DNA from: an uncultured Gammaproteobacteria bacterium
Lineage (GTDB): Bacteria; Patescibacteriota; Microgenomatia; Levybacterales; GWA1-39-11
NCBI GenBank assembly: GCA_964406795.1
Contig: CAYOTA010000007.1
Location: 5,898 to 69,897 of the forward strand
Length of the DNA: 64,000 nucleotides
Reading direction: 5' to 3'
How positions within the stretch are numbered: position 1 is the first letter of the stretch; each line of letters begins with the position of its first letter. The position numbers and the translations under genes were made by a program. The notes beneath the pieces are model-generated. The model had not been told where the DNA came from, ran no database searches, and was given only the letters and a program-made list of their open reading frames with translations. This document shows, in pieces, positions 2 through 42,190 of the stretch.

Positions 2-1156
2 AATAAGGTAGGAAAAGACGGAATTGTAACTGTAGAAGAGGGAAAAGGAGTTGAATTTAGCATAGATTACAAAGAGGGAATGGAATTTGATAAGGGTTAC
101 GCGTCATCTTATTTTGTAACAAATACTGACCGCATGGAGGCTGAAATCAATGACGCATACATTTTAATAACTGACAAAAAAATTACAAACCTTTCAGAAT
201 TGCTTCCGTTCCTCGAAAGCTTTATTAAAGTTTCCAAAAATTTAGTTATCATTGCAGATGACATAGAAGGTGAAGCACTTGCCACCTTGGTACTCAACAA
301 ATTAAGAGGCTCATTTAATGTGTTAGCTCTTAAAGCACCTGGATTTGGTGACAGAAGAAAGGCAATGTTAGAAGATATCGCAGCACTAACTGGTGCAACT
401 GTTATTTCTGACGATTTAGGCCGCAAGTTTGACTCAGTAACTATTGAAGACTGTGGAAGAGCTGAAAAAGTAAAATCCACAAATGAAAATACTCAAATAA
501 TTGGAGGTAAGGGTGAAAAAACAATGGTTAATGCTCGTGTTGGGCAAATAAAAGCAGAATTAGAACGATCAACTTCAGAATTTGACCGCGAAAAACTTCA
601 GGAAAGACTTGCTAAATTATCAGGCGGAGCTGCAGTAATAAACGTAGGAGCAGCAACTGAGGTTGAGATGAAAGAGAAAAAAGAACGCGTTATTGATGCA
701 GTTGCGGCTACTAAAGCAGCACTTGAAGAAGGAATAGTTCCTGGTGGTGGAGTAACACTATTAAAAGCAAGTAAGGTTCTTCCTAAACTAAAAGCGTCAT
801 TAGCTTCTGATGACGAGAAACAAGGAGTACAAGTCTTATATGAAGCACTAGCTCAGCCTGCATCTTGGATTGTCAAAAATGCCGGAGAAGAGCCGGGAGT
901 TATCATGCGGGACCTAGAAGCGTCAAAAGAAGATGATTATGGATTTAATGTAATGACCATGAAATATGGCTCTATGATAGAGGCAGGAATTGTGGATCCG
1001 GCAAAAGTAACCCGCACCGCAGTTCAAAATTCAGCATCTGTTGCCATGATGGTACTCACCACAGAGGCACTTATTTCAGATATTCCAGAAAAGAAAGATT
1101 CTCCAGCAGGCGGAATGCCGGGCGGCATGCCAGGCATGGGCGGCATGGATTTCTAG
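2..1156 (+). CDS. groL: Chaperonin GroEL (60 kDa), 5-prime truncated by window edge
   Basis: The frame stays open from nt 2 and reads [33 protein letters not shown]..., matching the GroEL apical/intermediate region. The C-terminal [15 protein letters not shown] tail is typical of GroEL. Confidence 0.95.
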
Positions 1157-8354: not shown

Positions 8355-8417
8355 ATATAAAACAAAGCCTTTTTGAATTGTATCTTATACGAAAAGTAAC
8401 GAAAGGAGGTGAGCAGT

Positions 8418-8858
8418 ATGGCAATAATCAGACTAAATCCTTGGAGCATTGACCGTATATTTGATGATGACTTTAATTTTCCTACTATTCATGGAGTATC
8501 CAAATTAATGGGTCAAGGAATAAACATTTACGAAACACAAGACTCAATAGTAGCAGAAACTGCTATCCCTGGACTTTCTGAAACAGATGTAGATGTAACT
8601 TTTGAGGACGGTGTTGTTAGAATAAGCGGGACAAAAGAGGAGAAACAGGAAGAAAAAGATAAAAGAAGGTACTTCATGTCTTCAATGATTGCATCATTTA
8701 ATTATTCATTTAGAATTCCACAAGGTGTTGTAAAAATACAAGAACCTAAGGCAGAACTTGAGGATGGTATTTTGAAGCTCACCTTCAGTAAGGTTGAGAA
8801 AAAAGAACCTAAAAGAATCAAGGTTTTTAAAAAAGCAAAAGTTAAAGCAATTTCATAA
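8418..8858 (+). CDS. Hsp20/alpha-crystallin small heat shock protein
   Basis: Alpha-crystallin domain (ETQDSIVAETAIPGL...VDVTFEDGVVRISG...SFRIPQGV). A GGAGGTGA SD sits 6 nt before the ATG at 8418; the ORF-track GTG at 8409 is unlikely. Confidence 0.85.
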   Translation: MAIIRLNPWSIDRIFDDDFNFPTIHGVSKLMGQGINIYETQDSIVAETAIPGLSETDVDVTFEDGVVRISGTKEEKQEEKDKRRYFMSSMIASFNYSFRIPQGVVKIQEPKAELEDGILKLTFSKVEKKEPKRIKVFKKAKVKAIS

Positions 8859-8881
8859 TGTTTTAATGTGCTTTTATAAAA

Positions 8882-8914
8882 TGTGCCCCTGTAAATTACA
8901 GGGGCACATTTGTT
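8882..8914. terminator. Bidirectional rho-independent terminator between convergent genes
   Basis: Perfect 10-bp stem TGTGCCCCTG / CAGGGGCACA with a 7-nt loop, A-rich 5-prime flank and TTTGTTT 3-prime flank. Confidence 0.7.
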
Positions 8915-8940: not shown

Positions 8941-10596
8941 TTATGGTTTCCAGTTGCCGAGTAGAATGGAGAGATCCAGTGTGTTAATTGTGCCATTGTT
9001 ATTTAAGTCGGCCAGCGCATCATTACTTCCCCATCGAGATAATAAAAAGGATAAGTCTTGTACGTTCACCTTGCCGTCACGGTTTATGTCACCAATCGCA
9101 AATAGTGGAGGTGTTGGTGTACTCGTGGGAGTAGGTGTGCTGGTAAGGAATATGATTGGTGAAGCAGTGATAGGGGCTATAGTTGCGGTTGCCGTGGGAG
9201 TATTGGTTATTGTGGGAGTTGGGCTTGTGCCGCCCGTTTGTGTACTTTCCCTTGACCAAATCGCAAAATCTTTAGCAAGATATGGCCAAGCACCATTGTA
9301 CCAACTGTCTTGTGAAAATCTTAATTTTACAGTCTGAGTTCCTGCAGGAATTGGCGTCCAATATGAAGAGAATTGACCTGGTCGATGTTGTCCGGTTGCT
9401 TCTACGCTACCCAGCTGACGTGATGCAGGAGCGTAGGTTGCCCCATTATTATAGGAGACTTCAACGGTGCCCACTGCTGAAAATCGGAGATTTGCGTTTT
9501 CTGGTGCGGGTAAGTTAAATTGTAAGGTTTCAGAGTTACTGCTTATAGTTCTCTTATTCGCCTTAATCATGGTGAAGGGAACAGAACTCGAGATTTGCAC
9601 ATTATCCCAATGCCATGTGTTTGGTTTACATGTTCCATCAGGTCCCGGATGATTTGCTACAGCACAATCTTTTGTAGGGTTGTACGAGTGATGTCCTAAT
9701 TGGACAACTCCCTGGGTCCAGTCTAATTCGGGAATATCAGTATCTACCCAATAAATAGATCTGTTAGAGGTGAGTGGTTGTGGAGGTATTCCAAATTTAA
9801 TGCGATTTCTTGAAAGTTGAAGCTCAAATGTTGCTCTGTCTCTGGGACTTGGGGTAAGTATGTCATCATATTTTGAAAATTGATTAGAGCTAATCTCAGT
9901 TTCAACATAATTCCTAATAATATATGTCTTAAATATACCTTGATCTTGTTTGATGTGAATCGCGTTTTTTGGTGTTCCTTGCAGGTCGGGAAGCCAATCG
10001 TCAAGTGGTAGCTGCATGTTATCCTCATAAGGTGTAATCCATAAATCAATCCAATCACGGCTTGTTGACCGATAAGTAGACACGTCAAATTTTAGAGTAG
10101 TTGTTCCATTTGAAATATCCATTAGACGGTTAGGCGTTAGATATATAACCGCGTAACCTTCTTCGTTTATAGCAGTCATTATGTGATCTTTACACATAAA
10201 GACCGCATCCTCATATATCCCGGTGGTGAGATGAGTAACTAAGTTGCCTGCAGTATCAAGTGGAGGAGTGCATCCTATACCATGATGTGCGTCTTGTTGA
10301 TTTAATTTCTGTAATGTATCTACATCCCGGGAGTGGATTGCTACATCCCATTCATTTTGGCCAGCTTGCGTGAATGGCTGTGGGGTTGTAGGGGAACCAT
10401 CAAAAGTTTCAGTAAAAGGAGTAGGTAAGTTTTCAGCTGCATAATTTCTTATATCCTGATTTTGGGTAAACAGAAAGTATGTCACAAAAAATGCTCCTGT
10501 AATAAATAGAACCAGCAAGACGGAAAGACTCTTTTTATTCTTAATCAGTTTAGTAATTTTTTCTCTTGCACTAATTTTAGGAATAATTTTAATCAC
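8941..10596 (-). CDS. Secreted/anchored protein with Thr/Pro linker and C-terminal type-I dockerin module
   Basis: N-terminal TM/signal, a large domain of unknown function, a TPTPT linker, then GDINRDGKVNVQDLSFLLSRWG and ADLNNNGTINTLDLSILLGNWKP. These are two canonical 12-residue Ca-binding loops plus helices. Confidence 0.6.
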   Translation of the reverse strand: MIKIIPKISAREKITKLIKNKKSLSVLLVLFITGAFFVTYFLFTQNQDIRNYAAENLPTPFTETFDGSPTTPQPFTQAGQNEWDVAIHSRDVDTLQKLNQQDAHHGIGCTPPLDTAGNLVTHLTTGIYEDAVFMCKDHIMTAINEEGYAVIYLTPNRLMDISNGTTTLKFDVSTYRSTSRDWIDLWITPYEDNMQLPLDDWLPDLQGTPKNAIHIKQDQGIFKTYIIRNYVETEISSNQFSKYDDILTPSPRDRATFELQLSRNRIKFGIPPQPLTSNRSIYWVDTDIPELDWTQGVVQLGHHSYNPTKDCAVANHPGPDGTCKPNTWHWDNVQISSSVPFTMIKANKRTISSNSETLQFNLPAPENANLRFSAVGTVEVSYNNGATYAPASRQLGSVEATGQHRPGQFSSYWTPIPAGTQTVKLRFSQDSWYNGAWPYLAKDFAIWSRESTQTGGTSPTPTITNTPTATATIAPITASPIIFLTSTPTPTSTPTPPLFAIGDINRDGKVNVQDLSFLLSRWGSNDALADLNNNGTINTLDLSILLGNWKP

Positions 10597-12491: not shown

Positions 12492-13313
12492 CTAGCGGAA
12501 AGAATTTATTTCATTCCGTAATTTTTGTGCTTCAGCTCTGGGTGAATTAGCAAGAATAATTCCCCTTGAGGAGTTAATTATAAGTCCTTTTCCCTGAGAG
12601 TTTTTTCCAGCTTTTACAAATGTTTCAACGCTTCCTCCCTGAGCTCCCACGCCAGGAACTAACATAGTCATCTCGCCAACTAGTTTTCTTATAGCTATCA
12701 GTTCTTCAGGATATGTCGCCCCAAAAAACATCATTGAGTTTGGATTTTCTCCGTGTGTCCGTATAAGCTCTTCTGCTACTTTTTGGTAAAGTAATTGTCC
12801 GTCTACTTTAAGTTCTTGGAATTCTTTTGCTCCTGGATTTGAAGAATGAACTCCTAAGATAATTCCTTTATCTTTATAATTATAAAACACTTCTAGGGAT
12901 TCTAAACCCATGTATGGCATAATAGTAATTGCGTCTCCTTGAAGATATTCAAAAACAAACTTAGCATATCCCTTATTTGTGTTTCCTATATCTCCTCGTT
13001 TTGCATCAATGATCACCGGAATTTCAGGATAATTTTGAGTCAGATAATCACATGTCATCTTAAGGTCTGTTATTCCATCAATTCCGCGAGATTCATAAAA
13101 TGCTGGGTTTGGTTTATATGCACAGACATATTCTGCAGTTTGATCAATAATAATTTTATTAAACTCAAATTGAGGATTTGGGTAAAGGCTAATGTTTGCG
13201 GGAATTCTCTCGAGTTCGGGATCAAGGCCTACACAAAGTAAAGAATTATTTTTTTTGATGGCAGCATCAAGTTTTTCAAAGAATGTCATGTTGCGTAAAG
13301 TATACCAAACCAC
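12492..13313 (-). CDS. pyrF: Orotidine-5-phosphate decarboxylase (long type-2 form)
   Basis: LCVGLDPE and DAKRGDIGNT motifs; about 273 aa, the size of the type-2 OMPdecase. Confidence 0.85.
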   Translation of the reverse strand: MVWYTLRNMTFFEKLDAAIKKNNSLLCVGLDPELERIPANISLYPNPQFEFNKIIIDQTAEYVCAYKPNPAFYESRGIDGITDLKMTCDYLTQNYPEIPVIIDAKRGDIGNTNKGYAKFVFEYLQGDAITIMPYMGLESLEVFYNYKDKGIILGVHSSNPGAKEFQELKVDGQLLYQKVAEELIRTHGENPNSMMFFGATYPEELIAIRKLVGEMTMLVPGVGAQGGSVETFVKAGKNSQGKGLIINSSRGIILANSPRAEAQKLRNEINSFR

Positions 13314-13351
13314 GTGCTTTATTGAAATGTTAAATATGGTATTATACTAGT

Positions 13352-14428
13352 GTGAAAACCCCTTTCTACGACCCATTAAAAACCTATGAAGAAAATTACG
13401 ACTATGGTCCTTTTGGAAGTTTTGCTAATCCAGAAAAATACCAATTAATGACAGACCTTTCACACGATTTTTTAGGTCATAAAGTAAATCTTCCTTTTGG
13501 CATTCCAGCAGGCCCACTTTTAAATAGTAAATTTGTAAAAGCGGCATTTGAAAAAGGATTTGATATACCCGTATATAAAACGGTGAGAAGTAAAACTTAT
13601 CAGACTCATCCATTTCCAAATGTGTTGGGTGTTCATGTAGATGGGGACTTAACACTTGAAAAAGCTCAGCAGCCACTTATTGCGGACGATAAATATGAAG
13701 ACCCAATCTCTATTACCAACTCCTTTGGTGTTCCTTCAAAAGATCCGAGTGTTTGGCAGGAAGACGCAAAAAAAGCTATTTCATATGCAGGAGTAGGGCA
13801 AGTAATGGTTTTAAGTTTTATGGGAACAGTTCAGCCAAATCAGACAGAGCAGGAATTGATTGAAGACTTTGCGCTGGCCGCGAGATTATCATTTGAAACA
13901 GGAGCTAAAATTTTGGAAGTGAATTTATCATGTCCTAATATTGGTAACGAGGGACTAGTTTGTTACAACTTGGACATGACAAAAAAAGTGTTAGAAGCCA
14001 TTAGAAGTAAAATTGAGAATGTTCCTCTTATCGTAAAGGTTGGATACTACAAAGAGGAAAAAGATTTGGAAAAGCTAGCTGAAATAGTGCCAGGGTATGC
14101 AAATTCTATTTCAGTAATTAATACTATCAGTGCGCCAATAGTTGATAAAGATGGAAATCAAGCACTTCCAGGAAATCCCGTTAGACTCAAAAGCGGTGTA
14201 TGTGGTGCTTGTATAAAATGGGCCGGGTTGGAGATGGTAAAAAAACTTAAAAGTATTCGGGAAAAACACAGTTATAAATTTTTCATAGATGGGGTGGGGG
14301 GAGTTACAAAACCACAAGATTATTTAGAATATAAAAATGCTGGAGCAGATGCTGTGTTTTCAGCGACTGGTGCTATGTGGAATCCAGAACTTGCAATTGA
14401 AATTAAAGAAAAAGTGAAAAACAGTTAA
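13352..14428 (+). CDS. pyrD: Dihydroorotate dehydrogenase, class-1 type (Cys active-site base) with N-terminal extension
   Basis: GIPAGP...KTV...GNP-like N-terminus, LEVNLSCPN active site, and a GVGGV FMN-binding C-terminus. Confidence 0.8.
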   Translation: MKTPFYDPLKTYEENYDYGPFGSFANPEKYQLMTDLSHDFLGHKVNLPFGIPAGPLLNSKFVKAAFEKGFDIPVYKTVRSKTYQTHPFPNVLGVHVDGDLTLEKAQQPLIADDKYEDPISITNSFGVPSKDPSVWQEDAKKAISYAGVGQVMVLSFMGTVQPNQTEQELIEDFALAARLSFETGAKILEVNLSCPNIGNEGLVCYNLDMTKKVLEAIRSKIENVPLIVKVGYYKEEKDLEKLAEIVPGYANSISVINTISAPIVDKDGNQALPGNPVRLKSGVCGACIKWAGLEMVKKLKSIREKHSYKFFIDGVGGVTKPQDYLEYKNAGADAVFSATGAMWNPELAIEIKEKVKNS

Positions 14429-15051
14429 GTTTTGTTTTTAAATTCGAGGAATTTTTTTCCGTGACCTACTGTTGTATTTACCGGTTTTCCCTCTTTACAT
14501 AACGGACACTTTTCAGCTGGCCATGTTTCAACCGGCAGCTCACCTAAGCTCATAAACGGTGCGCCTACCGTATCTCCATTAACTGTTTTAGGACTCCTGT
14601 TTACCATTACAATAACTGCCACAACTCGGCCGCCAGAAGCCTTTATGGTATCTACAACTTTTTTAACTGAGCCACCTGTAGTTGTTAAATCTTCTATAAC
14701 TAGTACATTTTTATTTGCTACATACTTATCATAATTTCTGGTAAACACTTGATTTTTTGATTCATCTTTCTCTGTGTAAATTCCTAAAATTTCTTTATTT
14801 TTTAATGATGACAGGTGATATGCCGTCCAGGTTGATAAAATAATTCCACCTAGTGCCGGGCCCACTACTACATCTACGTCCAAGTTTTGTGCTTTCTTAG
14901 CAAACAACATTCCTACTTGAGATGTTTCTTCAGTGTGCGGGTAAAGTGCATCTTTATTTATGTAGATAGGCATATGAAGGCCGGAAGTTCCTACAAAATG
15001 ATCATCTGTTAATACTGCTCCTACTTTTTTTAGAATTTCTAATACTTCCAT
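14425..15051 (-). CDS. pyrE: Orotate phosphoribosyltransferase with C-terminal Cys zinc-ribbon tail
   Basis: VLVIEDLTTTGGS PRPP-binding motif and a C-terminal CPLC...H cluster. Confidence 0.85.
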   Translation of the reverse strand: MEVLEILKKVGAVLTDDHFVGTSGLHMPIYINKDALYPHTEETSQVGMLFAKKAQNLDVDVVVGPALGGIILSTWTAYHLSSLKNKEILGIYTEKDESKNQVFTRNYDKYVANKNVLVIEDLTTTGGSVKKVVDTIKASGGRVVAVIVMVNRSPKTVNGDTVGAPFMSLGELPVETWPAEKCPLCKEGKPVNTTVGHGKKFLEFKNKT

Positions 15052-15059
15052 TGTATTTA

Positions 15060-16118
15060 TTATACCGCTGGCATAAGTACTCGTCCAGAGCCGGGTTTTG
15101 CAGTTATTTTTTCATTTTCAAAAACTATAGTATTTTCTAATGTGACTTTTTTAATTTTCCCCTGCATTTCACATCCGTTAAATGGTGACCACTTACATTT
15201 TGTAAATAATTTGTCATTTTCTATTTTGTATTTTTCATCCATATCTATTTCTACATTGGATTCTATATCTGGGATTTTTAAAATACTTTTAGGATTTGTG
15301 TAGCATAAGCGTTTAATATCTTCTATTGTTAACTTTTCTTGATTCACAGCGGTTAAAAGTAGTGGAAGTGTAGTTTCTAATCCAGGAACACCAAAGGGAG
15401 TTGGATGTAATTCTTTTTCCACTTTTGTATGCGGTGCGTGATCTGACTCAACCACATCTATATGTTCTAAATTTTCCCATAAATATGACACATCGTTTTT
15501 TGATTTTAAGTATGGTTTCATTTTCCCGTATGGTCCTAATTTTTGAGCATCTTCCTGGGTTAAAAATAAATGGTGAGGGGTAACACCGCATGTTATGGGA
15601 AGCCCTTCTTCTTTAGCGCTCATTATTTGTTCTAAGTCTGAGCGCAAACTTATATGGCAAAAGTGAGTAGGTTTCTTGGTGCGTTTAACATTTTTTATAA
15701 CTTCTGCTACTGCATCATCTTCTGCGTGAACTAGAATTGGCCCCCCATTCCATGCATCAAATATCTTTGAAAGCACATCTGCATTAATTAAAAAGTTTCC
15801 AGTAGTTTCATTCAGGTAAAGTTTTATCCCAAATACTTTTGATTTTACTTTTTCAAATTCGTCTAAATTTTCTCCCTGAGATCCAAAATAAAATCCAATA
15901 GTTGAGACAATTTGTAATTTCGCAAGTTCTATTTTTTCGTTGAGTAGTTCACTAGTTTTTATAGGAACAGTATTATTCGGCATATCTATAACTGTCACAA
16001 ATCCGCCCGCCAATGCTGCTGAAGTTCCTGATAAAAAATCTTCTTTTTGTGTTTGTCCAGGAGTTCGTAGGTGGACATGCATATCTATGAGTCCCGGTAG
16101 TGTAGTAATGTTAGACAT
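15060..16118 (-). CDS. pyrC: Dihydroorotase
   Basis: IDMHVHLRTPG metal-binding HxH, an amidohydrolase fold, and an 8-nt overlap with the carB stop. Confidence 0.85.
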   Translation of the reverse strand: MSNITTLPGLIDMHVHLRTPGQTQKEDFLSGTSAALAGGFVTVIDMPNNTVPIKTSELLNEKIELAKLQIVSTIGFYFGSQGENLDEFEKVKSKVFGIKLYLNETTGNFLINADVLSKIFDAWNGGPILVHAEDDAVAEVIKNVKRTKKPTHFCHISLRSDLEQIMSAKEEGLPITCGVTPHHLFLTQEDAQKLGPYGKMKPYLKSKNDVSYLWENLEHIDVVESDHAPHTKVEKELHPTPFGVPGLETTLPLLLTAVNQEKLTIEDIKRLCYTNPKSILKIPDIESNVEIDMDEKYKIENDKLFTKCKWSPFNGCEMQGKIKKVTLENTIVFENEKITAKPGSGRVLMPAV

Positions 16119-19100
16119 ATTCGTTCCAAGATTTGATTTCTAAGTCAGTTAATTTATACTCCGTAAGAGCCTTAACATACAAATCCGCGTTTTTTCTATT
16201 TGTGATAAGTCTGATATTGTGATCAATGGCCGCTCTTCTCATAATGTATCCGTCATCAATATCACGTCGTAACTTTGAGTCAACAATGTTTATTGCAAGA
16301 TCTACTTTTCCACGGGCAAAGTAATCAAGAACATTAGGGTTTTTCTTTTCATGTATCTTGTAAAGCCGTTTGGCCGCAATACCATGAAATTTTAAAAATC
16401 TTGCAGTTTTTTCAGTTGCATAAATTGGAACATTTAGTGTGTTTAATAGTAGTGCGGAATCCAAAAATCTAATTTTATTGTCATCAGTACCCAGTGAAAT
16501 AAATATTCCTTTTTTTGGAATAACACCCTCAACTGACAGTTCAGCTTTTAGAAATGCTTCTGCCAGTGTTTTCCCAAACGCAGCTGCTTCTCCGGTAGAC
16601 GCCATCTCTACTCGCAGTAGTGGGTCTGCACCTTCAAGTCGGGAGAATGAAAATTGCGGAACTTTTACTAAATACGAATTAGGATATTCTATTTTTTTGA
16701 CAACCCCTTTTTTGAAAAATGAGTCCACTATGATATGCGCAAGGTTAACTCCAGTCGCTTTAGAGATGAAAGGAAATGTTCTGGATGCGCGCAAATTTGC
16801 CTCAATAACATGCACCTGTCCTTCACGGGCTAAGAACTGAATATTGATAGGACCCGTAATTTGCAGTTCTTTTACAATTTTTTCGGCAATTGAAATAATT
16901 TCTTTTTCATAGTGAATATACAGTTGGTGAGGCGGATAAGAAATGGATGCGTCCCCTGAATGTACTCCTGCATTTTCTATGTGCTGGGAAATAGCATATG
17001 ACAAAAGTGTTCCTTCTTGGGCTACTCCATCCAATTCTATTTCGCGTGCATGCTCCACAAATTTACTAACGGTAATAGGATATTCATTGCTGAGAATGGT
17101 TGCCTTTTTAACAAATATTTCCAAATCATACTGGTTATAGCACACACTCATAGCATCCCCTGACAAAACATATGATGGTCGTATTAAGACAGGGTACCCA
17201 ACTTTTTTAGAGAACGAAATAGCATCTTGGAGATGTTTAAATTCTCTCCATTCAGGCTGGGAAATAGATAATGTGTCAAGTAGTTTTGAAAATGTATTTC
17301 TGTCTTCAGCCCGATCAATATTTTTAGGTGATGTTCCTAATATAGGAACTTTATATAGATCAAGTTTTTTAGATAAATTATTAGGTGTTTGTCCTCCAAC
17401 TGATACAACAACTCCAAATGATTTTTCAAAATCATAAATATCCAAAACGCGTTCGAGTGTTAACTCTTCAAAGTAAAGCCGTTCTGACATATCGTAATCA
17501 GTTGATACTGTTTCAGGATTACAGTTAATAATAATTGATTTCTTTTTATGCTTCTTAAGCGCATGTGCTGTGTTAACACATGTCCAGTCAAACTCAACAG
17601 AGGAGCCAATTCTATATGGTCCGGATCCTAACACAATTACACCGTCCTGTAAAAGTGGCCGCACATCATTATGATGTGCGTGATAGGTAGTGTATAAATA
17701 GTTTGTTTTTGCAGGAAACTCTCCTGCCAGTGTATCTATTTGTAAAATTGAAGGAGTAACTTCATTCTTAATTCTTAATTCTCTAACTTGTGACTCTGAC
17801 ATATTAACTAATGTTCCAATTCGCGCGTCAGCTATCCCTAATTTTTTATACGAAAGTAAAGACTCGCGGTCCAGTTTTTTATTTATTTGAAGTTTTTTTT
17901 CAGCGAGCACTATATTTTCTATAGCATATAAAAACCATGGATCAATTCCGGTAACTTTATTAATTTCAGAAATGGAACTTCCTGTTTTAAGCGCTTCAGC
18001 AATAGCAAAAACACGTTTTGGGGTGGGAACTTTTAAGAAATGCGCTATATTTTGTTTTACATTTAAGCCTTTTTGTTTGGGAATTGAATTATCAGACACT
18101 CCATTATTTTGCGTTCCTAGCATGCGGATTGCTTTTTGAAGTGCTTCCTCAAAACTCCTTCCAATACTCATTACTTCCCCCACAGACTTCATAGATGATC
18201 CTAATTTTTCCTCCACTCCTTTAAATTTTTCCAAATCCCATCTGGGAATTTTAACAACTAAATAATCAAGCGCGGGTTCAAATGCTGATTGGGTTACAAG
18301 TGTAACCTGATTTTTAATTTCCGTAAGCGCTTTGCCAAGTGCTAACTTGGCTGCAACATATGCCAATGGATATCCAGTCGCTTTAGAGGCAAGAGCTGAC
18401 GACCTTGAAAGTCTTGGGTTCATTTCAATTACTTCATATTCTAGCGGTGGATTGTCACCTTCTGTCTTTTTAGGTTTTACCTGCCCGCCGGTCAATTCAG
18501 CTTGCTGGTGTTGCGGGCGGGGATTGAGCGCAAATTGCACATTACATTCCCCAATGATATTAAGACTTCTGACAATTTTTATAGAAATGTCACGTAAATA
18601 TTGATATTCGTAATTAGTGAGAGTTTGGGACGGTGCAACTACAATAGACTCTCCGGTGTGAATTCCTAACGGATCCATATTCTCCATATTGCATACAGTT
18701 ATACAATTATCAAACGAGTCCCGAACAACCTCATATTCAATTTCTTTCCAGTGATGAAGATATTGTTCTACTAACACTTGCGGTGAGAAAGAAAGTGCTG
18801 CCTCAACACGTTCCTCAAATTCTTTTTCGGTATAACACACGCCTGACTTTTGCCCGCCCAGCGCAAATCCAGCTCGTACCATAACCGGAAGTCCTAATTT
18901 TTTCATGACTCTTTTGGCAGCTGCCATATTTCTTGCAGCGTGTGAAGTTGGGGTTTTTACGTGAATTTTTTTAAGGTGATTTGCAAACATTTGCCTGTCT
19001 TCCGCTATAATAACGCTTTCCACAGAAGTTCCAAGTACTGTTACGCCGTACTTTTGAAAAATCTTATTTTTATATAAATTCATCCCAGCATTAAGTGCTG

Positions 19101-19371
19101 TTTGTCCTCCAAATGAGAGGCTTATAGCATCCGGTTTTTCTTTTTTGATAATTTCTTCTATAAAGTATTCGTTGACAGGCAAGAAATATACCTTGTGTGC
19201 CATAAATTCAGAAGTTTGAATAGTTGCTATATTTGGATTGAGTAAAATTACCTCAATTCCCTCTTCTTTAAATGCTTTTATTGCTTGGGATCCGGAATAA
19301 TCAAATTCTCCAGCTTGTCCAATTTTTAACGCACCGGATCCTAACAGTAATACTTTTTTTATTTTTTTCAT
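16111..19371 (-). CDS. carB: Carbamoyl-phosphate synthase large subunit
   Basis: 1086 aa with duplicated ATP-grasp halves and an MGS-like C-terminus; unmistakable CarB. Confidence 0.95.
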   Translation of the reverse strand: MKKIKKVLLLGSGALKIGQAGEFDYSGSQAIKAFKEEGIEVILLNPNIATIQTSEFMAHKVYFLPVNEYFIEEIIKKEKPDAISLSFGGQTALNAGMNLYKNKIFQKYGVTVLGTSVESVIIAEDRQMFANHLKKIHVKTPTSHAARNMAAAKRVMKKLGLPVMVRAGFALGGQKSGVCYTEKEFEERVEAALSFSPQVLVEQYLHHWKEIEYEVVRDSFDNCITVCNMENMDPLGIHTGESIVVAPSQTLTNYEYQYLRDISIKIVRSLNIIGECNVQFALNPRPQHQQAELTGGQVKPKKTEGDNPPLEYEVIEMNPRLSRSSALASKATGYPLAYVAAKLALGKALTEIKNQVTLVTQSAFEPALDYLVVKIPRWDLEKFKGVEEKLGSSMKSVGEVMSIGRSFEEALQKAIRMLGTQNNGVSDNSIPKQKGLNVKQNIAHFLKVPTPKRVFAIAEALKTGSSISEINKVTGIDPWFLYAIENIVLAEKKLQINKKLDRESLLSYKKLGIADARIGTLVNMSESQVRELRIKNEVTPSILQIDTLAGEFPAKTNYLYTTYHAHHNDVRPLLQDGVIVLGSGPYRIGSSVEFDWTCVNTAHALKKHKKKSIIINCNPETVSTDYDMSERLYFEELTLERVLDIYDFEKSFGVVVSVGGQTPNNLSKKLDLYKVPILGTSPKNIDRAEDRNTFSKLLDTLSISQPEWREFKHLQDAISFSKKVGYPVLIRPSYVLSGDAMSVCYNQYDLEIFVKKATILSNEYPITVSKFVEHAREIELDGVAQEGTLLSYAISQHIENAGVHSGDASISYPPHQLYIHYEKEIISIAEKIVKELQITGPINIQFLAREGQVHVIEANLRASRTFPFISKATGVNLAHIIVDSFFKKGVVKKIEYPNSYLVKVPQFSFSRLEGADPLLRVEMASTGEAAAFGKTLAEAFLKAELSVEGVIPKKGIFISLGTDDNKIRFLDSALLLNTLNVPIYATEKTARFLKFHGIAAKRLYKIHEKKNPNVLDYFARGKVDLAINIVDSKLRRDIDDGYIMRRAAIDHNIRLITNRKNADLYVKALTEYKLTDLEIKSWNEYV

Positions 19372-20417
19372 TTTTTGTGTGCTTGAATCATATCCAAGAA
19401 TGTATCAAATAACCACTCTGTGTCATGCGGTCCCGGATAACTTTCAGGATGAAACTGTACTGACATAAAAGGAAGCGTTTTATGTCTTATCCCTTCATTT
19501 GTGTTGTCATTTGCATTAATAAACCATTCTGTAAATCCAGGCGGAATTTTTCCTACTGCAAATCCATGATTTTGAGTAGTTATAAAACATCGTTTTGTTC
19601 CAACCTGAATACAAGGTTGATTTTGGCTTCTATGTCCAAACTTTAATTTATACGTGTCTCCCCCGGCAGCTAATGCAAGTAATTGGTTTCCCAAGCAAAT
19701 CCCAAAAGTAGGTATTTTTAAATCTAGGACTTTTTTTATTATCTCAATAGTTTTGGCGGCCATTTTAGGATCCCCAGGACCATTTGAAATCATAACACCA
19801 TCCGGTTTTATTCCGTTTGCTAAAAAATCATAATCCCATGGGACTGTTGTAACAGTTGTATCTCGCTTTAATAAACTTCTTTCAATATTGCGCTTTGCCC
19901 CACAATCAATTAAAACAATTTTCTTTTTCCCTTTTCCTTTTGTTTGTGGGGTTGTGTTTGATACTTGCGCTACTAAATTTTCTAAATTTGGATCGTATTG
20001 CTTGACGTCCTTTCCAATAATAATTTTGCCTAACATAGTACCATGTTCACGTAATTTTTGGGCGATAAACCTAGTGTCAGATATTTCTAATGCCGGAATC
20101 CCTTCTTCTTTGAGCCAGGAAGACAAGCTCATATTTCCGTGCGGATGAGAGTATTTGTCCACATAGTTGCACACAATAATTCCTTTTACGTGAATTTTGC
20201 TGCTTTCAAAAAACTTTTTATCAAAGATTCCATAATTACCTATGAGAGGGTAGGTGAAAACTAAAATCTGTCCTGCATAAGAAGGGTCTGTCATACTCTC
20301 AGGATACCCTACCATACCGGTTGCAAATACAATTTCGCCGGATGTAGAAATATCTTTCCCAAAAGAAATTCCCTCCATTACTGTTCCGTCTTCAAAGAAT
20401 AATTTTCCTTTTGTCAT
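19368..20417 (-). CDS. carA: Carbamoyl-phosphate synthase small (glutaminase) subunit
   Basis: CarA N-domain plus class-I glutamine amidotransferase (GICLGNQLL catalytic Cys, HPE near the C-terminus). Confidence 0.95.
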   Translation of the reverse strand: MTKGKLFFEDGTVMEGISFGKDISTSGEIVFATGMVGYPESMTDPSYAGQILVFTYPLIGNYGIFDKKFFESSKIHVKGIIVCNYVDKYSHPHGNMSLSSWLKEEGIPALEISDTRFIAQKLREHGTMLGKIIIGKDVKQYDPNLENLVAQVSNTTPQTKGKGKKKIVLIDCGAKRNIERSLLKRDTTVTTVPWDYDFLANGIKPDGVMISNGPGDPKMAAKTIEIIKKVLDLKIPTFGICLGNQLLALAAGGDTYKLKFGHRSQNQPCIQVGTKRCFITTQNHGFAVGKIPPGFTEWFINANDNTNEGIRHKTLPFMSVQFHPESYPGPHDTEWLFDTFLDMIQAHKK

Positions 20418-21373: not shown

Positions 21374-21485
21374 TATTTCTCTAAAGTATGCGTTTCTTGA
21401 ATCCAACTTTATCAAAAATAGGGTATTAATACAAGGTTTATTACATTGTTCAACAAATCTTATTGAATAACCTCTTGACAAGAAT

Positions 21486-33887: not shown

Positions 33888-35417
33888 ATGCATAGATTAG
33901 GTAAAAAATATTTATTCCTTAAAGATCGAAAAGCGTTTATTTTAATTAGCGTGTTTTTGTTTTTAGGTATAGTTGTCTCTACGCTTTTCTTAAGTGCAAA
34001 ACATAGTACTAATGAGCAGGGTACAGCAGATGTTAAAAGTGGAACATGGGAAATAACAGTTGCATATAAAACAGAAACAAAAAAATTAGAACTTAAAAAA
34101 CTGCAGCTGCTATCTGAAAAAATTAATTCTGACAGCCGTACTGCATTATTTTCACCGTATACACTTTCTGTGATTGGAAAAAGTAACACAGTGCTTTATT
34201 CATCTCCGGTATTTATTGCAACAGAATACATATTTAGCATTTATGCCGGCTCGCGGGAATCACCAGGATTTAGCAGTTTTTCACAAGATGTTCCGCCAGT
34301 ACTTCCCAGGCCCCCAGCTGAGTTGGAGACTGTGTTATACGCGCCTTTAATTGCAGATTCATCTGAAATGGTAATTAAAAATGACGGAAAACAAGAATTA
34401 TCTATAAATTTGCCGGGTATAACAGGAATCTCTCAAAGCTCAAAAATTGCTCAGTCAGTATGCGGACCTTTACAGGTAGTGTTTATGAGTGACGGTTATA
34501 CTGATTTTCAAAAATTTCATCAAGATGTTGAGAGATTGAAGCAGACATTCTTATCAGCAGATCCGTATACTAAGAAACCAAATATGTTTGACTTCAAGAC
34601 AGTGGATAACGCACAAAGTCTTGGTTGCATGCAGAGCCTTGGATGTATTCGTAACCCAGATGTTCCCCGTATTGGTCGGCAAGCGTTTCCTCAGGCATCA
34701 AAATTTATAGTTATTGCAGATATTTCATATAATAATCCACCTCAGGGAGCCGCACTGGGAGTTATAAATGGGATAGGGGGGAATGTTATGGCTTTTCCAA
34801 GAAGTGCATATGTGCAGGGTCGCGAACTTGTAAATGAGATAGCAGTGCATGAATTTTTGGGTCATGGGGTTGGATTTTTGTACGATAGATACGTAGTAAA
34901 AAACAACACTCAGAGTGTAAAACGTAACTGTTCCAATAATCCAGCTGGGGAGTCGTTTTGGTCAGCGGCAGGTGTAACCCAAACTTACCCTGGGTGCTTT
35001 GCTGAGTCAAGATTTGCGCCAACCCCAAATGACTGTACGACCCCGGGACATCCAACACTCGTAAGTGGTGGTTCATTAAGTTCAGTTATGAGCGCAGGGG
35101 GATGTGGAGCAACACAATTTGATACCGTTGAAAAATATTGGATTGAAAACTATATTTTTCCAAAATATTCTAGCTGTAGTGATCCCACTACCACACTACG
35201 TCCTACGATGACAAACAGTCCAAGTGTTTCTCCAACTGGAGTTGTGGTGTGTAATCCGGACGGTGTAGGAGGGATTGATTTTGCTGATTTGCGCCTGGCA
35301 AGGCGTGAAATTGCTGGCATAGCTTCTACCTCACACGCCGCATGTATGACTGGTGGGCAGAGCACAGTATTTGCTGATTTGCGCAAAATACGGCGTATAA
35401 TTGCTGGTTTGGAATAG
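33888..35417 (+). CDS. Secreted zincin-like metallopeptidase candidate (M64/IgA-peptidase-like motif) with C-terminal dockerin-like repeats
   Basis: N-terminal [18 protein letters not shown] resembles the M64 HEFGHsfggLaDEY motif but with one extra residue (HExxxH). The C-terminus [23 protein letters not shown] ... [13 protein letters not shown] looks like a dockerin loop-helix duplication. Confidence 0.45.
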
Positions 35418-40439: not shown

Positions 40440-41036
40440 TTAGCGCGGCTTGTCAACCTTGGGCACAGCAAATACTAAAAGACGCTGTAGTGACGTACCA
40501 ATGGGAGTACATGTTTGCAAAATAAGTTGGGTTTTTTGAGTGTTTTGAAGATAAGAAACTTCATTTGGCCACACTGTTTTTTTATCACTCACTATATACT
40601 TGTATTTTTTACCATTCTTAATAAGCATAATTTCATCGTTTTTTTGAAGCTCACCTAATCTATAGAATGCACTATTTTGTCTTGTGATTCTCCACGGTAA
40701 GTCGTATGAATGAGCAAAAAGGAATATAGTACCACTGGTGGATGCAATAGTTGCTGTTCCTTTTGCATGAGCTACTCCTTTTTTTAACTCTTTTTGATAC
40801 TCTGCTTCATTCCACGGATTTACATTTTCTATAATGGGCGCTTGAGCCTGAATTTTTGGTATTTCTATAAATACACCTTTTTTGGGTGAAGCTTTGATAG
40901 CAGGTGGATTAACATACACAAACAATAGTGGATAATAAATATAAAGCAATACAAGAATGGGAATTAACATCAAAGTATTTCCGATATTTTTTATGATATT
41001 TAGTTTTTGTTTTTTTGTGAGCTTGAGATTTGTCAT
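40440..41036 (-). CDS. Sortase (transpeptidase), class-E-like
   Basis: N-terminal TM anchor, a His loop (GVAHAKGTA), and a LILQTCTP catalytic-Cys TLxTC motif. It lies directly downstream of an LPXTG protein. Confidence 0.7.
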   Translation of the reverse strand: MTNLKLTKKQKLNIIKNIGNTLMLIPILVLLYIYYPLLFVYVNPPAIKASPKKGVFIEIPKIQAQAPIIENVNPWNEAEYQKELKKGVAHAKGTATIASTSGTIFLFAHSYDLPWRITRQNSAFYRLGELQKNDEIMLIKNGKKYKYIVSDKKTVWPNEVSYLQNTQKTQLILQTCTPIGTSLQRLLVFAVPKVDKPR

Positions 41037-41086: not shown

Positions 41087-42190
41087 TTATTTTCCAGGAG
41101 CAATCCCAGAGCGATAGCGCAGATACCAACCTGAGAAGAATGTTATTAGACTTGCCAAAGTAATGAAATACAAAAGATATGATCCGGTTGCCGGAAGAAC
41201 ATCTCCACCACTAGCAGCACTGGACGCTGATGCTCCCCCTACAGATCCGCTTGAAGGATGGCAATTTTCAATACATGGCTTAGGGGACGGAGCAGGAGTT
41301 ATGGTAGGTGTTGGAGACGGGTTTTCTGGTTTTTCACAATCACAATCAGCATATAAAAAATTACTGTTTGCTGAATTATTTATTTCAATAAGGGACAATA
41401 TTCCGCCTGTTTTAATATAGACGTCACCCGTATTTCCTTTTGCTGTATTTTTCCCTGTGTTGAGCAATGACATAATATTATTTGTTATAAATGAATTGTT
41501 TGAGGATGTAGAAGCTAATGTCTTAGGGTCGGAGTAAAACATTTTATTAATTGAATCAGCTGCATTATTATGAATCGCAAGCACAACTGCTTTTTGTCCA
41601 AATGACAAGTGCTGGACAGAAGAGTTAATATTTGAGTTATCTAGTTGAATACTTGAAGTAATACTTCCTGTATTTATCACCACATGTCCATTGTTGTAAC
41701 TTGCAGTATTACTTCCGGTATTTGCTTTGACGGTAATATTATTAGTAATTACAGTGTTGTTGTTTTGGTTGGAATTAACTGTCTGAGAAGTTTGAGAGTT
41801 AATAATGTTATTAGATTCGGCACCATTGTTTTCAATTTTTATAGTTGTTTCTGAATTTGTGCAGCAAGGGTTGTTAGTAGCTACGTTCGCATTTATATTT
41901 TCATTTGAAATGTTTACTTCAGATGATGTGTCACCGGTTTTGATAGCCGTATCCCCTTGGTTACTATTTGAAGTATTGTCGCCAGTATTTGCATTAGAGT
42001 CTACATTATTTTGAATCTCTGAGCTATTGTCTTGGTGTACGGCAGTGTTTTGGTTTGATTCAACACTTACTTCATTTTGGGAGTTCGCCCCGTTTCCTGA
42101 TATTACAATTTCTTCAGCGTATGCTTGTGTGAAAATCTGCAGTTGTAGTGCTACGCAAAGAGTGAGTGATACAAAAATCTTTTTTGACAT
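41087..42190 (-). CDS. LPXTG cell-wall-anchored surface protein with Asn/Thr-rich repeats
   Basis: Signal peptide, ISGNGANSxNEV...TGDN...IKTGD repeat modules with CC/CDC motifs, a PSPTPT linker, and a C-terminal LPATG plus hydrophobic stretch plus RYRSG sorting signal. Confidence 0.7.
   Translation of the reverse strand: MSKKIFVSLTLCVALQLQIFTQAYAEEIVISGNGANSQNEVSVESNQNTAVHQDNSSEIQNNVDSNANTGDNTSNSNQGDTAIKTGDTSSEVNISNENINANVATNNPCCTNSETTIKIENNGAESNNIINSQTSQTVNSNQNNNTVITNNITVKANTGSNTASYNNGHVVINTGSITSSIQLDNSNINSSVQHLSFGQKAVVLAIHNNAADSINKMFYSDPKTLASTSSNNSFITNNIMSLLNTGKNTAKGNTGDVYIKTGGILSLIEINNSANSNFLYADCDCEKPENPSPTPTITPAPSPKPCIENCHPSSGSVGGASASSAASGGDVLPATGSYLLYFITLASLITFFSGWYLRYRSGIAPGK

What the first reader, a model, noticed from the sequence alone, without database searches (positions are those of the whole stretch)
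8941..9100. Canonical type-I dockerin module at the C-terminus of a large secreted protein
The last 48 residues, GDINRDGKVNVQDLSFLLSRWG ... ADLNNNGTINTLDLSILLGNWKP, contain two 12-residue EF-hand-like loops (D/N at positions 1, 3, 5, 9 and 12), each followed by an amphipathic helix. This is the defining dockerin duplication. Dockerins imply a cohesin-bearing scaffold or an alternative cognate receptor on the cell surface. The M64-like peptidase at 33888-35417 carries a related tail, suggesting a shared docking mechanism for exported enzymes in this organism.
Basis: seen in the sequence. Interest (0 to 1): 0.55.

Follow-up and report, generated by a model that had tools for sequence, protein, structure and literature searches.

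The report
Compact dockerin on a CPR surface protein
The end of this exported protein is a real but unusually short dockerin, a calcium-binding plug that probably clips the protein onto a matching cohesin on the cell surface; this docking system is already known in this group of ultra-small bacteria, so the finding is correct but ordinary.

Summary
The 551-aa ORF on the minus strand (8941-10596) ends in two 12-residue D/N loops, each followed by a helix. It passes Pfam Dockerin_1 (29.6 bits against a cut-off of 22.9). The loop pattern is expected about 0.01 times in the window and occurs twice, 27 residues apart. AlphaFold models the module at pLDDT about 95.

It is a compact 50-aa dockerin. 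Only 7 residues link the two halves and there is no middle helix, so "canonical" is overstated. The same form is conserved in 13 homologues.

The rest of the protein is an N-terminal signal or anchor helix, a ConA-like jelly-roll core from an unnamed, highly conserved family, an Ig-like sandwich and a Thr/Pro linker. The core resembles GH16 enzymes and L-type lectins in fold but lacks the GH16 catalytic glutamates.

The window holds no cohesin. Relatives do: a 71% homologue lies beside cohesin proteins, and Microgenomates carry LPxTG-anchored single cohesins. The window encodes a sortase and one LPATG substrate. Cohesin and dockerin genes in Microgenomates are already published.

The M64-like peptidase tail fails Pfam Dockerin_1. 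It is nevertheless a divergent, cysteine-containing dockerin-like module by fold search and profile comparison.

Verdict: a new member of a known kind, of low to moderate interest.

The parts
8941..10596 (-). Whole gene: 551-aa exported modular protein (signal/anchor, ConA-like core, Ig-like sandwich, Thr/Pro linker, dockerin). The stop codon TAA is at 8941-8943.
   Evidence: ORF list. Sequence. About 1000 homologues. AlphaFold mean pLDDT 88.5. The GTG start agrees with the N-terminus of homologue P0003.
10432..10596 (-). N-terminal region, residues 1-55: a basic stretch followed by a hydrophobic helix (about residues 24-43, nt 10468-10527). It is either a Sec signal peptide or a signal anchor.
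   Evidence: Sequence. Modelled as a long helix over 21-55. Homologues share a motif after the helix, Q.(R/K)Q..R..A(A/S). Cleavage was not tested.
9577..10428 (-). Core domain, residues 57-340: a ConA-like beta jelly roll from an unnamed conserved family, probably glycan-binding or glycan-cleaving.
   Evidence: pLDDT above 94. Foldseek PDB hits to GH16 beta-glucanases and L-type lectins: E about 1e-6, TM 0.5-0.6 on the target, about 10% identity. No Pfam or NCBIfam hit. 18 invariant residues, including R180, D181, R254, Q299, H302, H303, Y305, K309, H329 and D331; no glutamate is conserved at 90% or more.
9253..9573 (-). Second beta-sandwich, residues 342-448 (Ig-like or CBM-like).
   Evidence: Strand pattern and pLDDT above 92. 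Only a weak Big_3_5 match, E 0.04.
9109..9231 (-). Thr/Pro-rich flexible linker, residues 456-496.
   Evidence: Sequence. pLDDT below 50.
8944..9093 (-). Compact dockerin, residues 502-551. Ca loop 1 is D503-D514 (nt 9055-9090), followed by helix 512-520, a 7-residue connector, Ca loop 2 D530-D541 (nt 8974-9009) and helix 539-547.
   Evidence: Pfam Dockerin_1 above the gathering cut-off. Pattern search and shuffles. Conserved in 13 homologues. pLDDT 94-96.
8879..8911 (.). Strong hairpin between the convergent HSP20 gene (ends 8858) and this gene. It is a likely terminator serving both genes.
   Evidence: RNA fold -25.4 kcal/mol, z -6.7, 0 of 200 shuffles fold as well. The simple terminator scan missed it.
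35241..35414 (+). C-terminal 58-aa tail of the M64-like metallopeptidase (ORF 33888-35417). It is a divergent, internally duplicated dockerin-like module with conserved C455 and C486. Ca loop 1 is partly kept and loop 2 is lost.
   Evidence: No Pfam hit. The two halves match each other at 93% hhalign probability. AlphaFold pLDDT 80.8 with three helices. The top 21 Foldseek PDB hits are all dockerins. The profile hits Pfam-confirmed dockerins. hhalign 97% against canonical dockerins.
40440..41036 (-). Sortase gene, the machinery needed to anchor LPxTG surface proteins such as the single cohesins seen in relatives.
   Evidence: Pfam Sortase, E 4.7e-23.
41087..42190 (-). 367-aa Asn/Ser/Thr-rich surface protein ending in LPATG, a hydrophobic helix and a basic tail. 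It is a sortase substrate and is not cohesin-like.
   Evidence: Motif search. Sequence. No Pfam hit. No match to the cohesin profile.

Best explanation
The gene encodes an exported modular protein of a Microgenomates-group (CPR/Patescibacteria) bacterium.

After Sec export, the ConA-like jelly-roll core and the Ig-like sandwich are held on a flexible Thr/Pro linker about 45 residues long. The final 50 residues form a compact dockerin.

Each half of the dockerin would bind one Ca2+ through its D/N residues at loop positions 1, 3, 5, 9 and 12. The two helices (512-520 and 539-547) pack antiparallel and present nearly symmetric DLS(F/I)LL faces.

The most likely function is non-covalent, Ca-dependent docking onto a cohesin domain of a small cell-surface protein, either LPxTG/sortase-anchored or membrane-anchored. 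This would keep a glycan-binding or glycan-cleaving module on the surface of an ultra-small cell.

Shown here:
- dockerin identity, spacing and predicted fold;
- conservation of this subtype in homologues;
- cohesin proteins next to a 71% homologue and elsewhere in Microgenomates;
- a sortase and one LPXTG substrate in this window.

Inferred, not shown:
- Ca binding and cohesin binding;
- the presence of a cohesin in this genome;
- surface display;
- the substrate of the core domain.
For: Dockerin identity:
- Pfam Dockerin_1 scores 29.6 and 35.5 bits against a cut-off of 22.9.
- The two full loops are the only matches in six frames, with about 0.01 expected.
- pLDDT is 94-96 with two helices.
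- The same 48-50-aa form sits after Pro/Thr linkers in 13 homologues.

Partner in the lineage:
- Homologues P0006, P0022 and P0088 carry an extra module whose profile hits 220-235-aa proteins that pass the Pfam Cohesin threshold at 39.7 and 30.3 bits against 24.1.
- Those small proteins have a signal peptide, one cohesin, a linker, LPxTG and a C-terminal membrane helix.
- One is named "cohesin domain-containing protein [Ca. Shapirobacteria]".

Gene cluster in a relative. On the contig of the 71% homologue P0002, 10 kb holds:
- three enzymes bearing this dockerin;
- a 206-aa cohesin protein (E 1.6e-13);
- a membrane-anchored cohesin-like protein;
- a 521-aa protein with two cohesins and a dockerin.

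In this window: a sortase (E 4.7e-23) and an LPATG substrate.

Literature:
- Ca. Shapirobacterales expresses cohesin and dockerin genes, and a "cellulosome" is reported in a Roizmanbacterium (PMC9123182).
- A dockerin-domain protein is essential in a cultured Saccharibacterium (PMC10633639).

Glycan-related core:
- The core has a ConA-like fold.
- Homologues fuse it to GH5, PA14, PF16841 and Laminin_G_3 modules.
Against: - No cohesin was found anywhere in the 64-kb window. I tested 41 ORFs with Pfam and ran two lineage cohesin profiles over all six frames.
- The positional orthologue P0001 (75% identity, syntenic) has no cohesin within 10 kb either side.
- The rest of the source genome could not be retrieved.
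- The contig holding the cohesin cluster (L011) may belong to a different genome from the syntenic one.
- The cohesin-like modules on L011 do not reach Pfam Cohesin on their own. They are linked only through a profile built here.
- From my own knowledge (Peer et al. 2009, not read here), many non-cellulosomal dockerins occur in genomes with no recognisable cohesin.
- Ca binding and partner binding are untested.
- If the N-terminal helix is not cleaved, the protein is already membrane-tethered and would need docking less.
Confidence: 0.65

Rival explanations
1. This is an orphan dockerin with no cohesin partner. The module acts on its own as a Ca-dependent stabilising or adhesion module, for example binding a host-cell glycan or protein or mediating self-association, as proposed for many non-cellulosomal dockerins.
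For: - No cohesin was found in the window or around the syntenic orthologue.
- The CPR literature treats dockerin proteins as possible binders of host glycans (PMC10633639).
- The core is lectin-like in fold, which fits an adhesin.
Against: - The same dockerin subtype sits beside cohesin and cohesin-dockerin adaptor genes on the contig of a 71% homologue.
- Some family members carry a cohesin and this dockerin in one chain.
- Cohesins are common in Microgenomates.
- Strong conservation of the helix faces (DLSxLLsxW in both halves) suggests a specific protein partner.
Confidence: 0.27
2. This is a generic EF-hand-type calcium sensor or structural Ca site that regulates the enzyme, unrelated to docking.
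For: The isolated 58-residue module reaches the EF-hand_1 gathering score (26.9 bits against 25.4) and falls just short for EF-hand_6 and EF-hand_5. In the whole protein all three are below cut-off.
Against: - The EF-hand scores are at or just around their cut-offs, whereas Dockerin_1 scores 35.5 bits against 22.9 on the same module.
- Each loop is followed by a helix but not preceded by one, which is the dockerin F-hand form.
- The module is C-terminal, sits after a long disordered linker and is exchangeable among unrelated catalytic domains. That is typical of docking modules, not regulators.
Confidence: 0.05
3. The match is chance or an artefact: the ORF is not a gene, or the motif is a low-complexity coincidence.
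For: None found.
Against: - About 1000 homologues, with the top hits at 71-75% identity.
- A syntenic orthologue.
- A high-confidence model.
- Shuffles give about 0.01 expected matches against 2 observed.
Confidence: 0.01

Closest known systems
Clostridial/ruminococcal type I dockerins (Pfam PF00404; e.g. C. thermocellum Xyn10B dockerin, PDB 1OHZ)
   Same: - A tandem duplication of a 12-residue Ca loop (D/N at positions 1, 3, 5, 9, 12) followed by a helix.
- A C-terminal position after a Pro/Thr linker on an exported modular enzyme.
- Near-symmetric halves.
- A Pfam score above threshold.
   Different: - It is much shorter, 50 aa against roughly 60-70 (typical length from my own knowledge).
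- The connector is 7 residues and no middle helix is predicted.
- The contact positions 10 and 11 are V-Q and T-L rather than the Ser-Thr pair (Ser-Thr from my own knowledge).
- The host is an ultra-small CPR bacterium with no cellulases in view.
- The partner in relatives is a single LPxTG- or membrane-anchored cohesin or a two-cohesin adaptor, not a large scaffoldin.
Cohesin-dockerin genes reported in Microgenomates (Ca. Shapirobacterales, Bell et al. 2022, PMC9123182; a Roizmanbacterium cited there)
   Same: - The same superphylum.
- The small cohesin proteins found here include sequences named from Shapirobacteria and Roizmanbacteria.
- Dockerin-bearing exoproteins accompany them.
   Different: - That paper reports domain annotations and expression only.
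- The protein family carrying the dockerin here (an unnamed ConA-like core) and the compact dockerin subtype are not described there, as far as I read.
- A cohesin in this particular genome is not shown.
GH16 beta-glucanases and L-type lectins (ConA-like jelly roll; PDB 5dxd, 4xdq, 2a71, 2e6v)
   Same: The core domain shares the fold: Foldseek E about 1e-6, TM 0.5-0.6 relative to the target.
   Different: - Identity is only about 10%.
- No glutamate is conserved at 90% or more, so the GH16 ExDx(x)E catalytic motif is absent.
- The invariant set is instead rich in His, Asp, Arg, Gln, Tyr and Lys.
- There is no Pfam or NCBIfam model for the core.
Canonical dockerins with RRYIAGL-type helices (e.g. 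P0210, P0211; Pfam Dockerin_1 E 1e-13 to 1e-14), as comparator for the M64-like tail
   Same: - The helix motifs match ([12 protein letters not shown] and [14 protein letters not shown] against DLVQLRRYIAGLE and DLVKIRRMLAGLE).
- Both are internally duplicated.
- Both are C-terminal after a Pro/Thr linker.
- The predicted three-helix fold matches.
- hhalign gives 97% probability.
   Different: - The tail fails Pfam Dockerin_1 even at E<=10 in all 15 members tested.
- Loop 2 has lost four of its five Ca ligands. Loop 1 lacks position 5 in the window protein.
- Two invariant cysteines (C455, C486) are present.
- The family is very rare: 21 clusters among 1.84 billion representatives.

Membership tests
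Dockerin (Pfam PF00404 Dockerin_1) | Profile HMM score at or above the curated gathering threshold | tested here: met
   29.6 bits for the whole protein and 35.5 bits for the isolated module, against a cut-off of 22.9.
Dockerin (Pfam PF00404 Dockerin_1) | Two tandem segments, each a 12-residue Ca loop with D/N at positions 1, 3, 5, 9 and 12 followed by a helix | tested here: met
   Loops are D503-D514 and D530-D541. Helices are 512-520 and 539-547 at pLDDT 94-96. The halves are 10/21 identical.
Dockerin (Pfam PF00404 Dockerin_1) | Canonical length with a linker or helix 2 between the repeats (what makes it "canonical" type I) | tested here: not met
   44 residues span 51 model positions. The connector is 7 residues and no middle helix is predicted.
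Dockerin (Pfam PF00404 Dockerin_1) | C-terminal or terminal module on an exported modular protein | tested here: met
   N-terminal hydrophobic helix, Thr/Pro linker, module at the extreme C-terminus.
Dockerin (Pfam PF00404 Dockerin_1) | Ca2+ binding and Ca-dependent binding to a cohesin | not testable with these tools
   This needs ITC or ELISA, or a complex prediction with ions.
Type I (as opposed to II or III) dockerin | Specificity for type I cohesins, or phylogenetic placement with type I | not tested
   No partner is known. The Pfam family name does not discriminate between types. The NCBIfam dockerin_GC model gives only a sub-threshold match (25.1 against 29).
Cohesin-dockerin system (cellulosome-like) | A cohesin-bearing protein encoded in the same genome | tested here: inconclusive
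   None was found in the 64-kb window. The rest of the genome was not retrievable. Cohesins are present in relatives, including next to a 71% homologue.
Cohesin-dockerin system (cellulosome-like) | Multi-cohesin scaffoldin with a cellulose-binding module and dockerin-bearing cellulases | tested here: not met
   The window has no scaffoldin and none of the 41 ORFs scanned with Pfam has a CBM or cellulase hit. The relative's cluster has at most a two-cohesin adaptor, plus one weak arabinofuranosidase-C hit.
Glycoside hydrolase family 16 | ConA-like beta jelly-roll fold | tested here: met
   Foldseek hits to GH16 structures, E about 2e-6.
Glycoside hydrolase family 16 | Conserved catalytic ExDx(x)E motif | tested here: not met
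   In 121 aligned homologues no glutamate column reaches 90% conservation. There is no Pfam GH16 hit.
Dockerin, applied to the M64-like peptidase tail (35241-35414) | Pfam Dockerin_1 HMM match | tested here: not met
   No hit at E<=10 for the window tail or for any of 15 family members. A profile of this lineage's dockerins does not detect it.
Dockerin, applied to the M64-like peptidase tail (35241-35414) | Dockerin fold and remote homology | tested here: met
   The top 21 Foldseek PDB matches are all dockerin chains, TM 0.60-0.68 except one at 0.53, though each E-value is only 0.4-4. The profile reaches Pfam-confirmed dockerins at E 7e-4. hhalign gives 97% probability and E 4.8e-11.
Dockerin, applied to the M64-like peptidase tail (35241-35414) | Two complete Ca-binding loops | tested here: not met
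   Loop 1 keeps positions 1, 3, 9 and 12 but has Val at position 5. Loop 2 keeps only position 12 (alignment).
Peptidase M64 | Pfam PF09471 score above the gathering threshold | tested here: not met
   19.9 bits against a cut-off of 26, covering residues 194-241 only. A zincin HEFLGH motif is present, and two distant homologues carry a precomputed PF09471 hit.

The most novel reading that the evidence does not exclude
This Microgenomates genome displays its exoenzymes through two separate docking tags. One is a minimal 50-aa Ca-dependent dockerin on an uncharacterised ConA-like glycan-active family that may be a new CAZyme family. The other is a rare cysteine-containing dockerin derivative that has lost its second Ca loop and may be Ca-independent. 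The second tag sits on metallo- and serine proteases. Each tag would recognise its own small sortase- or membrane-anchored cohesin, giving a minimal surface-display system that an episymbiotic cell uses to work on host envelopes.
Probability: 0.2. Interest if true: 0.55.

Novelty: new member of a known kind. Interest (0 to 1): 0.28.

Why it matters
Dockerins outside cellulolytic clostridia are common, and cohesin and dockerin genes have already been reported in Microgenomates. The finding therefore adds one more member rather than a new principle.

Its modest value lies in three points.

1. It shows that an ultra-small, host-dependent bacterium spends part of a tiny genome on surface display of glycan-active and proteolytic enzymes. 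That bears on how CPR cells feed on or attach to hosts.

2. It flags a large, strongly conserved ConA-like domain family that has no Pfam model and could be a new carbohydrate-active family.

3. It identifies a rare dockerin derivative with degenerate Ca loops and two conserved cysteines. This derivative could show how dockerins evolve new or Ca-independent binding modes.

Tried and rejected
- **Cohesin in the window.** Pfam on 41 ORFs and two lineage cohesin profiles over all six frames found nothing.

- **Retrieving the source contig or genome.** Exact look-ups of three window proteins failed. The single genome-contig scan returned only distant relatives: a Microgenomates MAG at 30% identity, and dockerin-only hits in Saccharibacteria, Ruminococcus and others.

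- **Linking the extra module of P0006, P0022 and P0088 to solved cohesins by sequence.** There was no PDB hit and no direct Pfam Cohesin hit. The link came only through the homologue search.

- **M64 tail as a dockerin by direct tests.** Pfam, the lineage dockerin profile and a first hhalign (8.6% probability) were all negative. Fold and deeper profile evidence later changed the picture.

- **GH16 membership of the core.** Rejected for lack of conserved catalytic glutamates.

- **Profile of the family against PDB sequences.** It gave only a match in the linker region.

- **The LPATG protein and the neighbouring 742-aa repeat protein as cohesin carriers.** Neither shows any similarity to cohesins.

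- **RNA genes.** No tRNA or Rfam family was found in the window.
Full report
**1. Observation**

The plus strand of the interval reads only as stop codons. The TAA stop lies at 8941-8943.

The module runs from G502 to P551 (nt 8944-9093), which is 50 residues rather than 48.

- Loop 1 is DINRDGKVNVQD (D503-D514).
- Loop 2 is DLNNNGTINTLD (D530-D541).
- Both have D/N at positions 1, 3, 5, 9 and 12.
- Each loop is followed by DLS(F/I)LL..W.

A strict pattern for such a loop matches only these two places in all six frames. Nucleotide, codon-block and residue shuffles give 0.005-0.012 expected matches.

Pfam Dockerin_1 matches residues 502-545 at E 8.3e-7 and 29.6 bits against a gathering score of 22.9. 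The isolated module scores 35.5 bits. For the whole protein the EF-hand families stay below their cut-offs. For the isolated module EF-hand_1 just reaches its cut-off (26.9 bits against 25.4), far below the margin of Dockerin_1.

An AlphaFold model built on 121 homologues gives pLDDT 94-96 for residues 500-550. Its helices at 512-520 and 539-547 begin inside the loops, as in dockerin F-hand motifs.

**2. What kind of dockerin**

The 44 aligned residues cover 51 positions of the Pfam model. Only seven residues (G523-A529) join helix 1 to loop 2, and no middle helix is predicted. This is a compact form, so "canonical type I" overstates the case.

The form is not an accident of this gene. Thirteen homologues end in the same 48-50-residue module:

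GDxNxDGKVdvqDLSyLLsxW-(5-6 aa)-aDlNxDGxvNtlDLSiLLsNW

In every case it follows a Pro/Thr-rich linker. A profile of these modules finds no second copy in the window.

The two halves are 10/21 identical and present the same DLSxLL face. A dual binding mode is therefore conceivable, but this is inference.

**3. The protein that carries it**

The model has mean pLDDT 88.5. It shows, in order:

- a long N-terminal helix (21-55) covering a basic stretch and a hydrophobic segment;
- a beta-rich core (57-340);
- a second beta-sandwich (342-448);
- a disordered Thr/Pro linker (456-496);
- the dockerin.

Foldseek against the PDB places the core among ConA-like jelly rolls. The matches are GH16 beta-glucanases (Rv0315 orthologues, gut O-glycanases) and L-type lectins (Emp47p, VIP36, legume lectins). 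Scores are E about 1e-6 and TM 0.5-0.6 on the target, at only about 10% identity.

The core has no Pfam or NCBIfam model. It is nevertheless very well conserved. About 1000 database proteins match. The top 120 share 36-72% identity (mostly 40-50%) over 62-100% of the query.

These homologues are fused to various partners: dockerins, PA14, GH5 cellulase, PF16841 (CBM60, name from memory), Laminin_G_3 and others.

Eighteen residues are invariant, among them R180, D181, R254, Q299, H302, H303, Y305, K309, H329 and D331. Two cysteine pairs are nearly invariant. No glutamate is conserved at 90% or more. The GH16 catalytic motif is therefore absent and the protein is not a GH16 member.

I take the core to be a glycan-binding or glycan-cleaving module of an undescribed family. 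Its substrate is unknown.

**4. Source and gene context**

The window has 37% G+C.

Named relatives of window proteins come from Levybacteria, Daviesbacteria and "Patescibacteria group". The nearest genome hit for the core is a Microgenomates MAG. The organism is therefore a Microgenomates-group CPR bacterium.

The gene lies between an HSP20 gene and methionyl-tRNA synthetase. A full pyrimidine-synthesis cluster lies beyond that.

The closest homologue, P0001 (75% identity in alignment A2), sits in the same gene order on a 427-kb contig. It is followed by a dockerin-less paralogue that carries PA14.

A strong hairpin at 8879-8911 (-25.4 kcal/mol, z -6.7) separates this gene from the convergent HSP20 gene. 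It probably terminates both.

**5. Is there a partner?**

None is present in the window. Pfam on 41 ORFs and two cohesin profiles run over all six frames found nothing.

Relatives tell a different story.

- Homologues P0006, P0022 and P0088 carry an extra module of about 134 residues between the core and the dockerin.
- That module has no direct Pfam or PDB hit.
- Its profile retrieves small proteins of 220-235 aa, most with a precomputed Cohesin hit. One is named [quoted passage not shown] and another comes from Roizmanbacteria.
- Two of these pass Pfam Cohesin here, at 39.7 and 30.3 bits against 24.1, and also hit the LPXTG anchor model.
- Their layout is signal peptide, one cohesin, Thr/Pro linker, LPxTG and a membrane helix. 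They are sortase-anchored single cohesins.

The contig of P0002 (71% identical to the window protein) holds, within about 10 kb:

- three proteins with this compact dockerin, one being P0002 itself;
- a 206-aa cohesin protein (profile E 1.6e-13);
- a 314-aa protein with a cohesin-like N-terminus and a C-terminal membrane helix;
- a 521-aa protein with two cohesins and a different dockerin.

In another CPR contig, an LPxTG cohesin overlaps the start of a gene whose product carries two cysteine-bracketed DYNKDG loops.

The window itself encodes a sortase (E 4.7e-23) next to a protein ending in LPATG.

The literature agrees. Ca. Shapirobacterales expresses cohesin and dockerin genes, and a Roizmanbacterium is cited as having cellulosome components (PMC9123182). 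A dockerin-domain protein is essential in a cultured Saccharibacterium (PMC10633639).

**6. Mechanism**

The best-supported reading is that the dockerin tethers this glycan-active protein, in a Ca-dependent way, to a small cohesin protein fixed to the cell wall or membrane. My confidence is about 0.65.

Shown: the dockerin features, their conservation, cohesins in the lineage and beside a close homologue, and sortase machinery in this window.

Inferred: Ca binding, cohesin binding, the presence of a cohesin in this genome, and surface display.

The main rival is an orphan dockerin that acts without a cohesin, with confidence about 0.27. It stays open until the whole genome is searched.

**7. 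The M64-like tail**

The ORF at 33888-35417 has only a sub-threshold Peptidase_M64 match (19.9 bits against 26) and a HEFLGH zinc motif. Its last 58 residues give no Pfam hit at all, and neither do 14 related tails. The profile of compact dockerins misses it as well.

Yet the tail is a module in its own right.

- The same sequence, C(D/N)[16 protein letters not shown]...[15 protein letters not shown], follows Pro/Thr linkers on at least three unrelated catalytic domains in Levybacteria-like genomes.
- Its two halves match each other at 93% hhalign probability.
- An AlphaFold model has pLDDT 80.8 and three helices.
- The top 21 PDB matches of that model are all dockerin chains from cohesin-dockerin complexes, with TM 0.60-0.68 in all but one (0.53). 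Each E-value alone is weak, 0.4-4, as expected for 58 residues.
- A profile search of 1.84 billion representatives finds just 21 proteins. All carry the module at or near the C-terminus. Two are bona fide dockerins at E 7e-4 over the same residues that Pfam calls Dockerin_1.
- Profile-profile comparison with such RRYIAGL-type dockerins gives 97% probability and E 4.8e-11. The compact dockerin gives 95% against the same set.

The template set for that last comparison was partly chosen from the tail's own hits, so the E-value is optimistic.

However, loop 2 has lost four of its five Ca ligands, loop 1 lacks position 5, and two cysteines (C455, C486) are invariant. The subtype differs from the compact dockerin, so I would expect a different partner rather than a shared one.

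**8. Comparison with what is known, and novelty**

The module is a member of the dockerin family by HMM score and by its defining loops. It is a compact variant of that family.

The system it implies is not a cellulosome in the strict sense. There is no scaffoldin, and no CBM or cellulase hit in the ORFs scanned. It resembles the small non-cellulosomal cohesin-dockerin pairs known across many lineages.

Because cohesin and dockerin genes have already been reported in Microgenomates, I rate it a new member of a known kind, with interest 0.28.

The less ordinary by-products are the unnamed ConA-like family and the rare cysteine-containing dockerin derivative.

Noticed in passing
window 35241-35414 (+), tail of ORF 33888-35417: A rare C-terminal module (21 clusters among 1.84 billion representatives) that is a divergent dockerin. 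It is internally duplicated, has two invariant cysteines and has lost its second Ca loop. It occurs on at least three unrelated catalytic domains, and some proteins carry it together with a canonical dockerin.
   Followed up: yes
window 9577-10428 (-), core of the dockerin protein: A ConA-like jelly-roll domain with no Pfam or NCBIfam model. About 1000 homologues match; the top 120 share 36-72% identity (mostly 40-50%) and include Chloroflexota-named proteins. There are 18 invariant residues (His, Asp, Arg, Gln, Tyr, Lys) and no conserved Glu. It may be an undescribed carbohydrate-active family.
   Followed up: partly
window 40440-44455 (-): A sortase gene, a 367-aa Asn/Ser/Thr-rich protein ending in LPATG plus a membrane helix, and a 742-aa Asn/Thr/Gly-rich repeat protein with a C-terminal membrane helix. 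Neither of the latter two has a Pfam hit. This is probably a surface-fibre or pilus-like locus.
   Followed up: partly
window 33800-33881 (+), C-terminus of the S8 subtilase ORF 31950-33881: The subtilase ends in a four-cysteine tail (GCYYDPGCFSSNQSVQACSFTCD). Many homologues of the neighbouring M64-like peptidase end in the same C..DP.C....Q.C.L.C motif instead of the dockerin-like tail. This is a third interchangeable C-terminal module in these exoproteins.
   Followed up: no
L011 5206-14797 (contig ena:ERZ27297427:k119_881971): A compact cohesin-dockerin gene cluster in a relative. It holds three dockerin enzymes (793, 770 and 551 aa), a 206-aa cohesin protein, a membrane-anchored cohesin-like protein (314 aa) and a 521-aa protein with two cohesins and a dockerin.
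   Followed up: partly
L013 10001-11400: An LPxTG single-cohesin gene overlaps the start of a 240-aa gene. That gene's product has an FN3-like domain and two separate cysteine-bracketed loops (C..DYNKDGxINSxD...CL), which may be a split or half-dockerin variant.
   Followed up: no
N-termini of the window protein (nt about 10432-10470) and of homologues P0001-P0088, P0200-P0206: A conserved motif directly after the N-terminal hydrophobic helix, Q.(R/K)Q(D/N).R..A(A/S), is shared by otherwise unrelated exported proteins of this lineage. It may be a lineage-typical signal-peptide processing region.
   Followed up: no
window 12492-21481: An apparently complete de novo pyrimidine pathway sits in one cluster: OMP decarboxylase, DHO dehydrogenase, a phosphoribosyltransferase, a dihydroorotase-like amidohydrolase, carbamoyl-phosphate synthase large and small chains, and aspartate carbamoyltransferase. 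This is notable for a CPR bacterium, a group usually described as poor in nucleotide synthesis.
   Followed up: no
window 80-1156, 8409-8858, 21595-24917, 29210-39071: Chaperone genes are dense here: a GroEL fragment, HSP20, hrcA-grpE-dnaK, two ClpB-like ATPases and a putative dnaJ at 35465-36331 (called from the sequence only, not scanned). The two secreted proteases (S8 and M64-like) sit between the first clpB and that ORF.
   Followed up: no
window 8879-8911: A 15-bp perfect hairpin (-25.4 kcal/mol, z -6.7) lies between the convergent HSP20 and dockerin-protein genes. It is a likely terminator serving both genes. The simple terminator scan missed it.
   Followed up: yes
window 26428-29157 (+): An 804-aa multi-pass membrane protein with a weak TrbL/VirB6 match (E 7e-4, below cut-off) is preceded by a small membrane protein. 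It may be a type IV secretion component.
   Followed up: no
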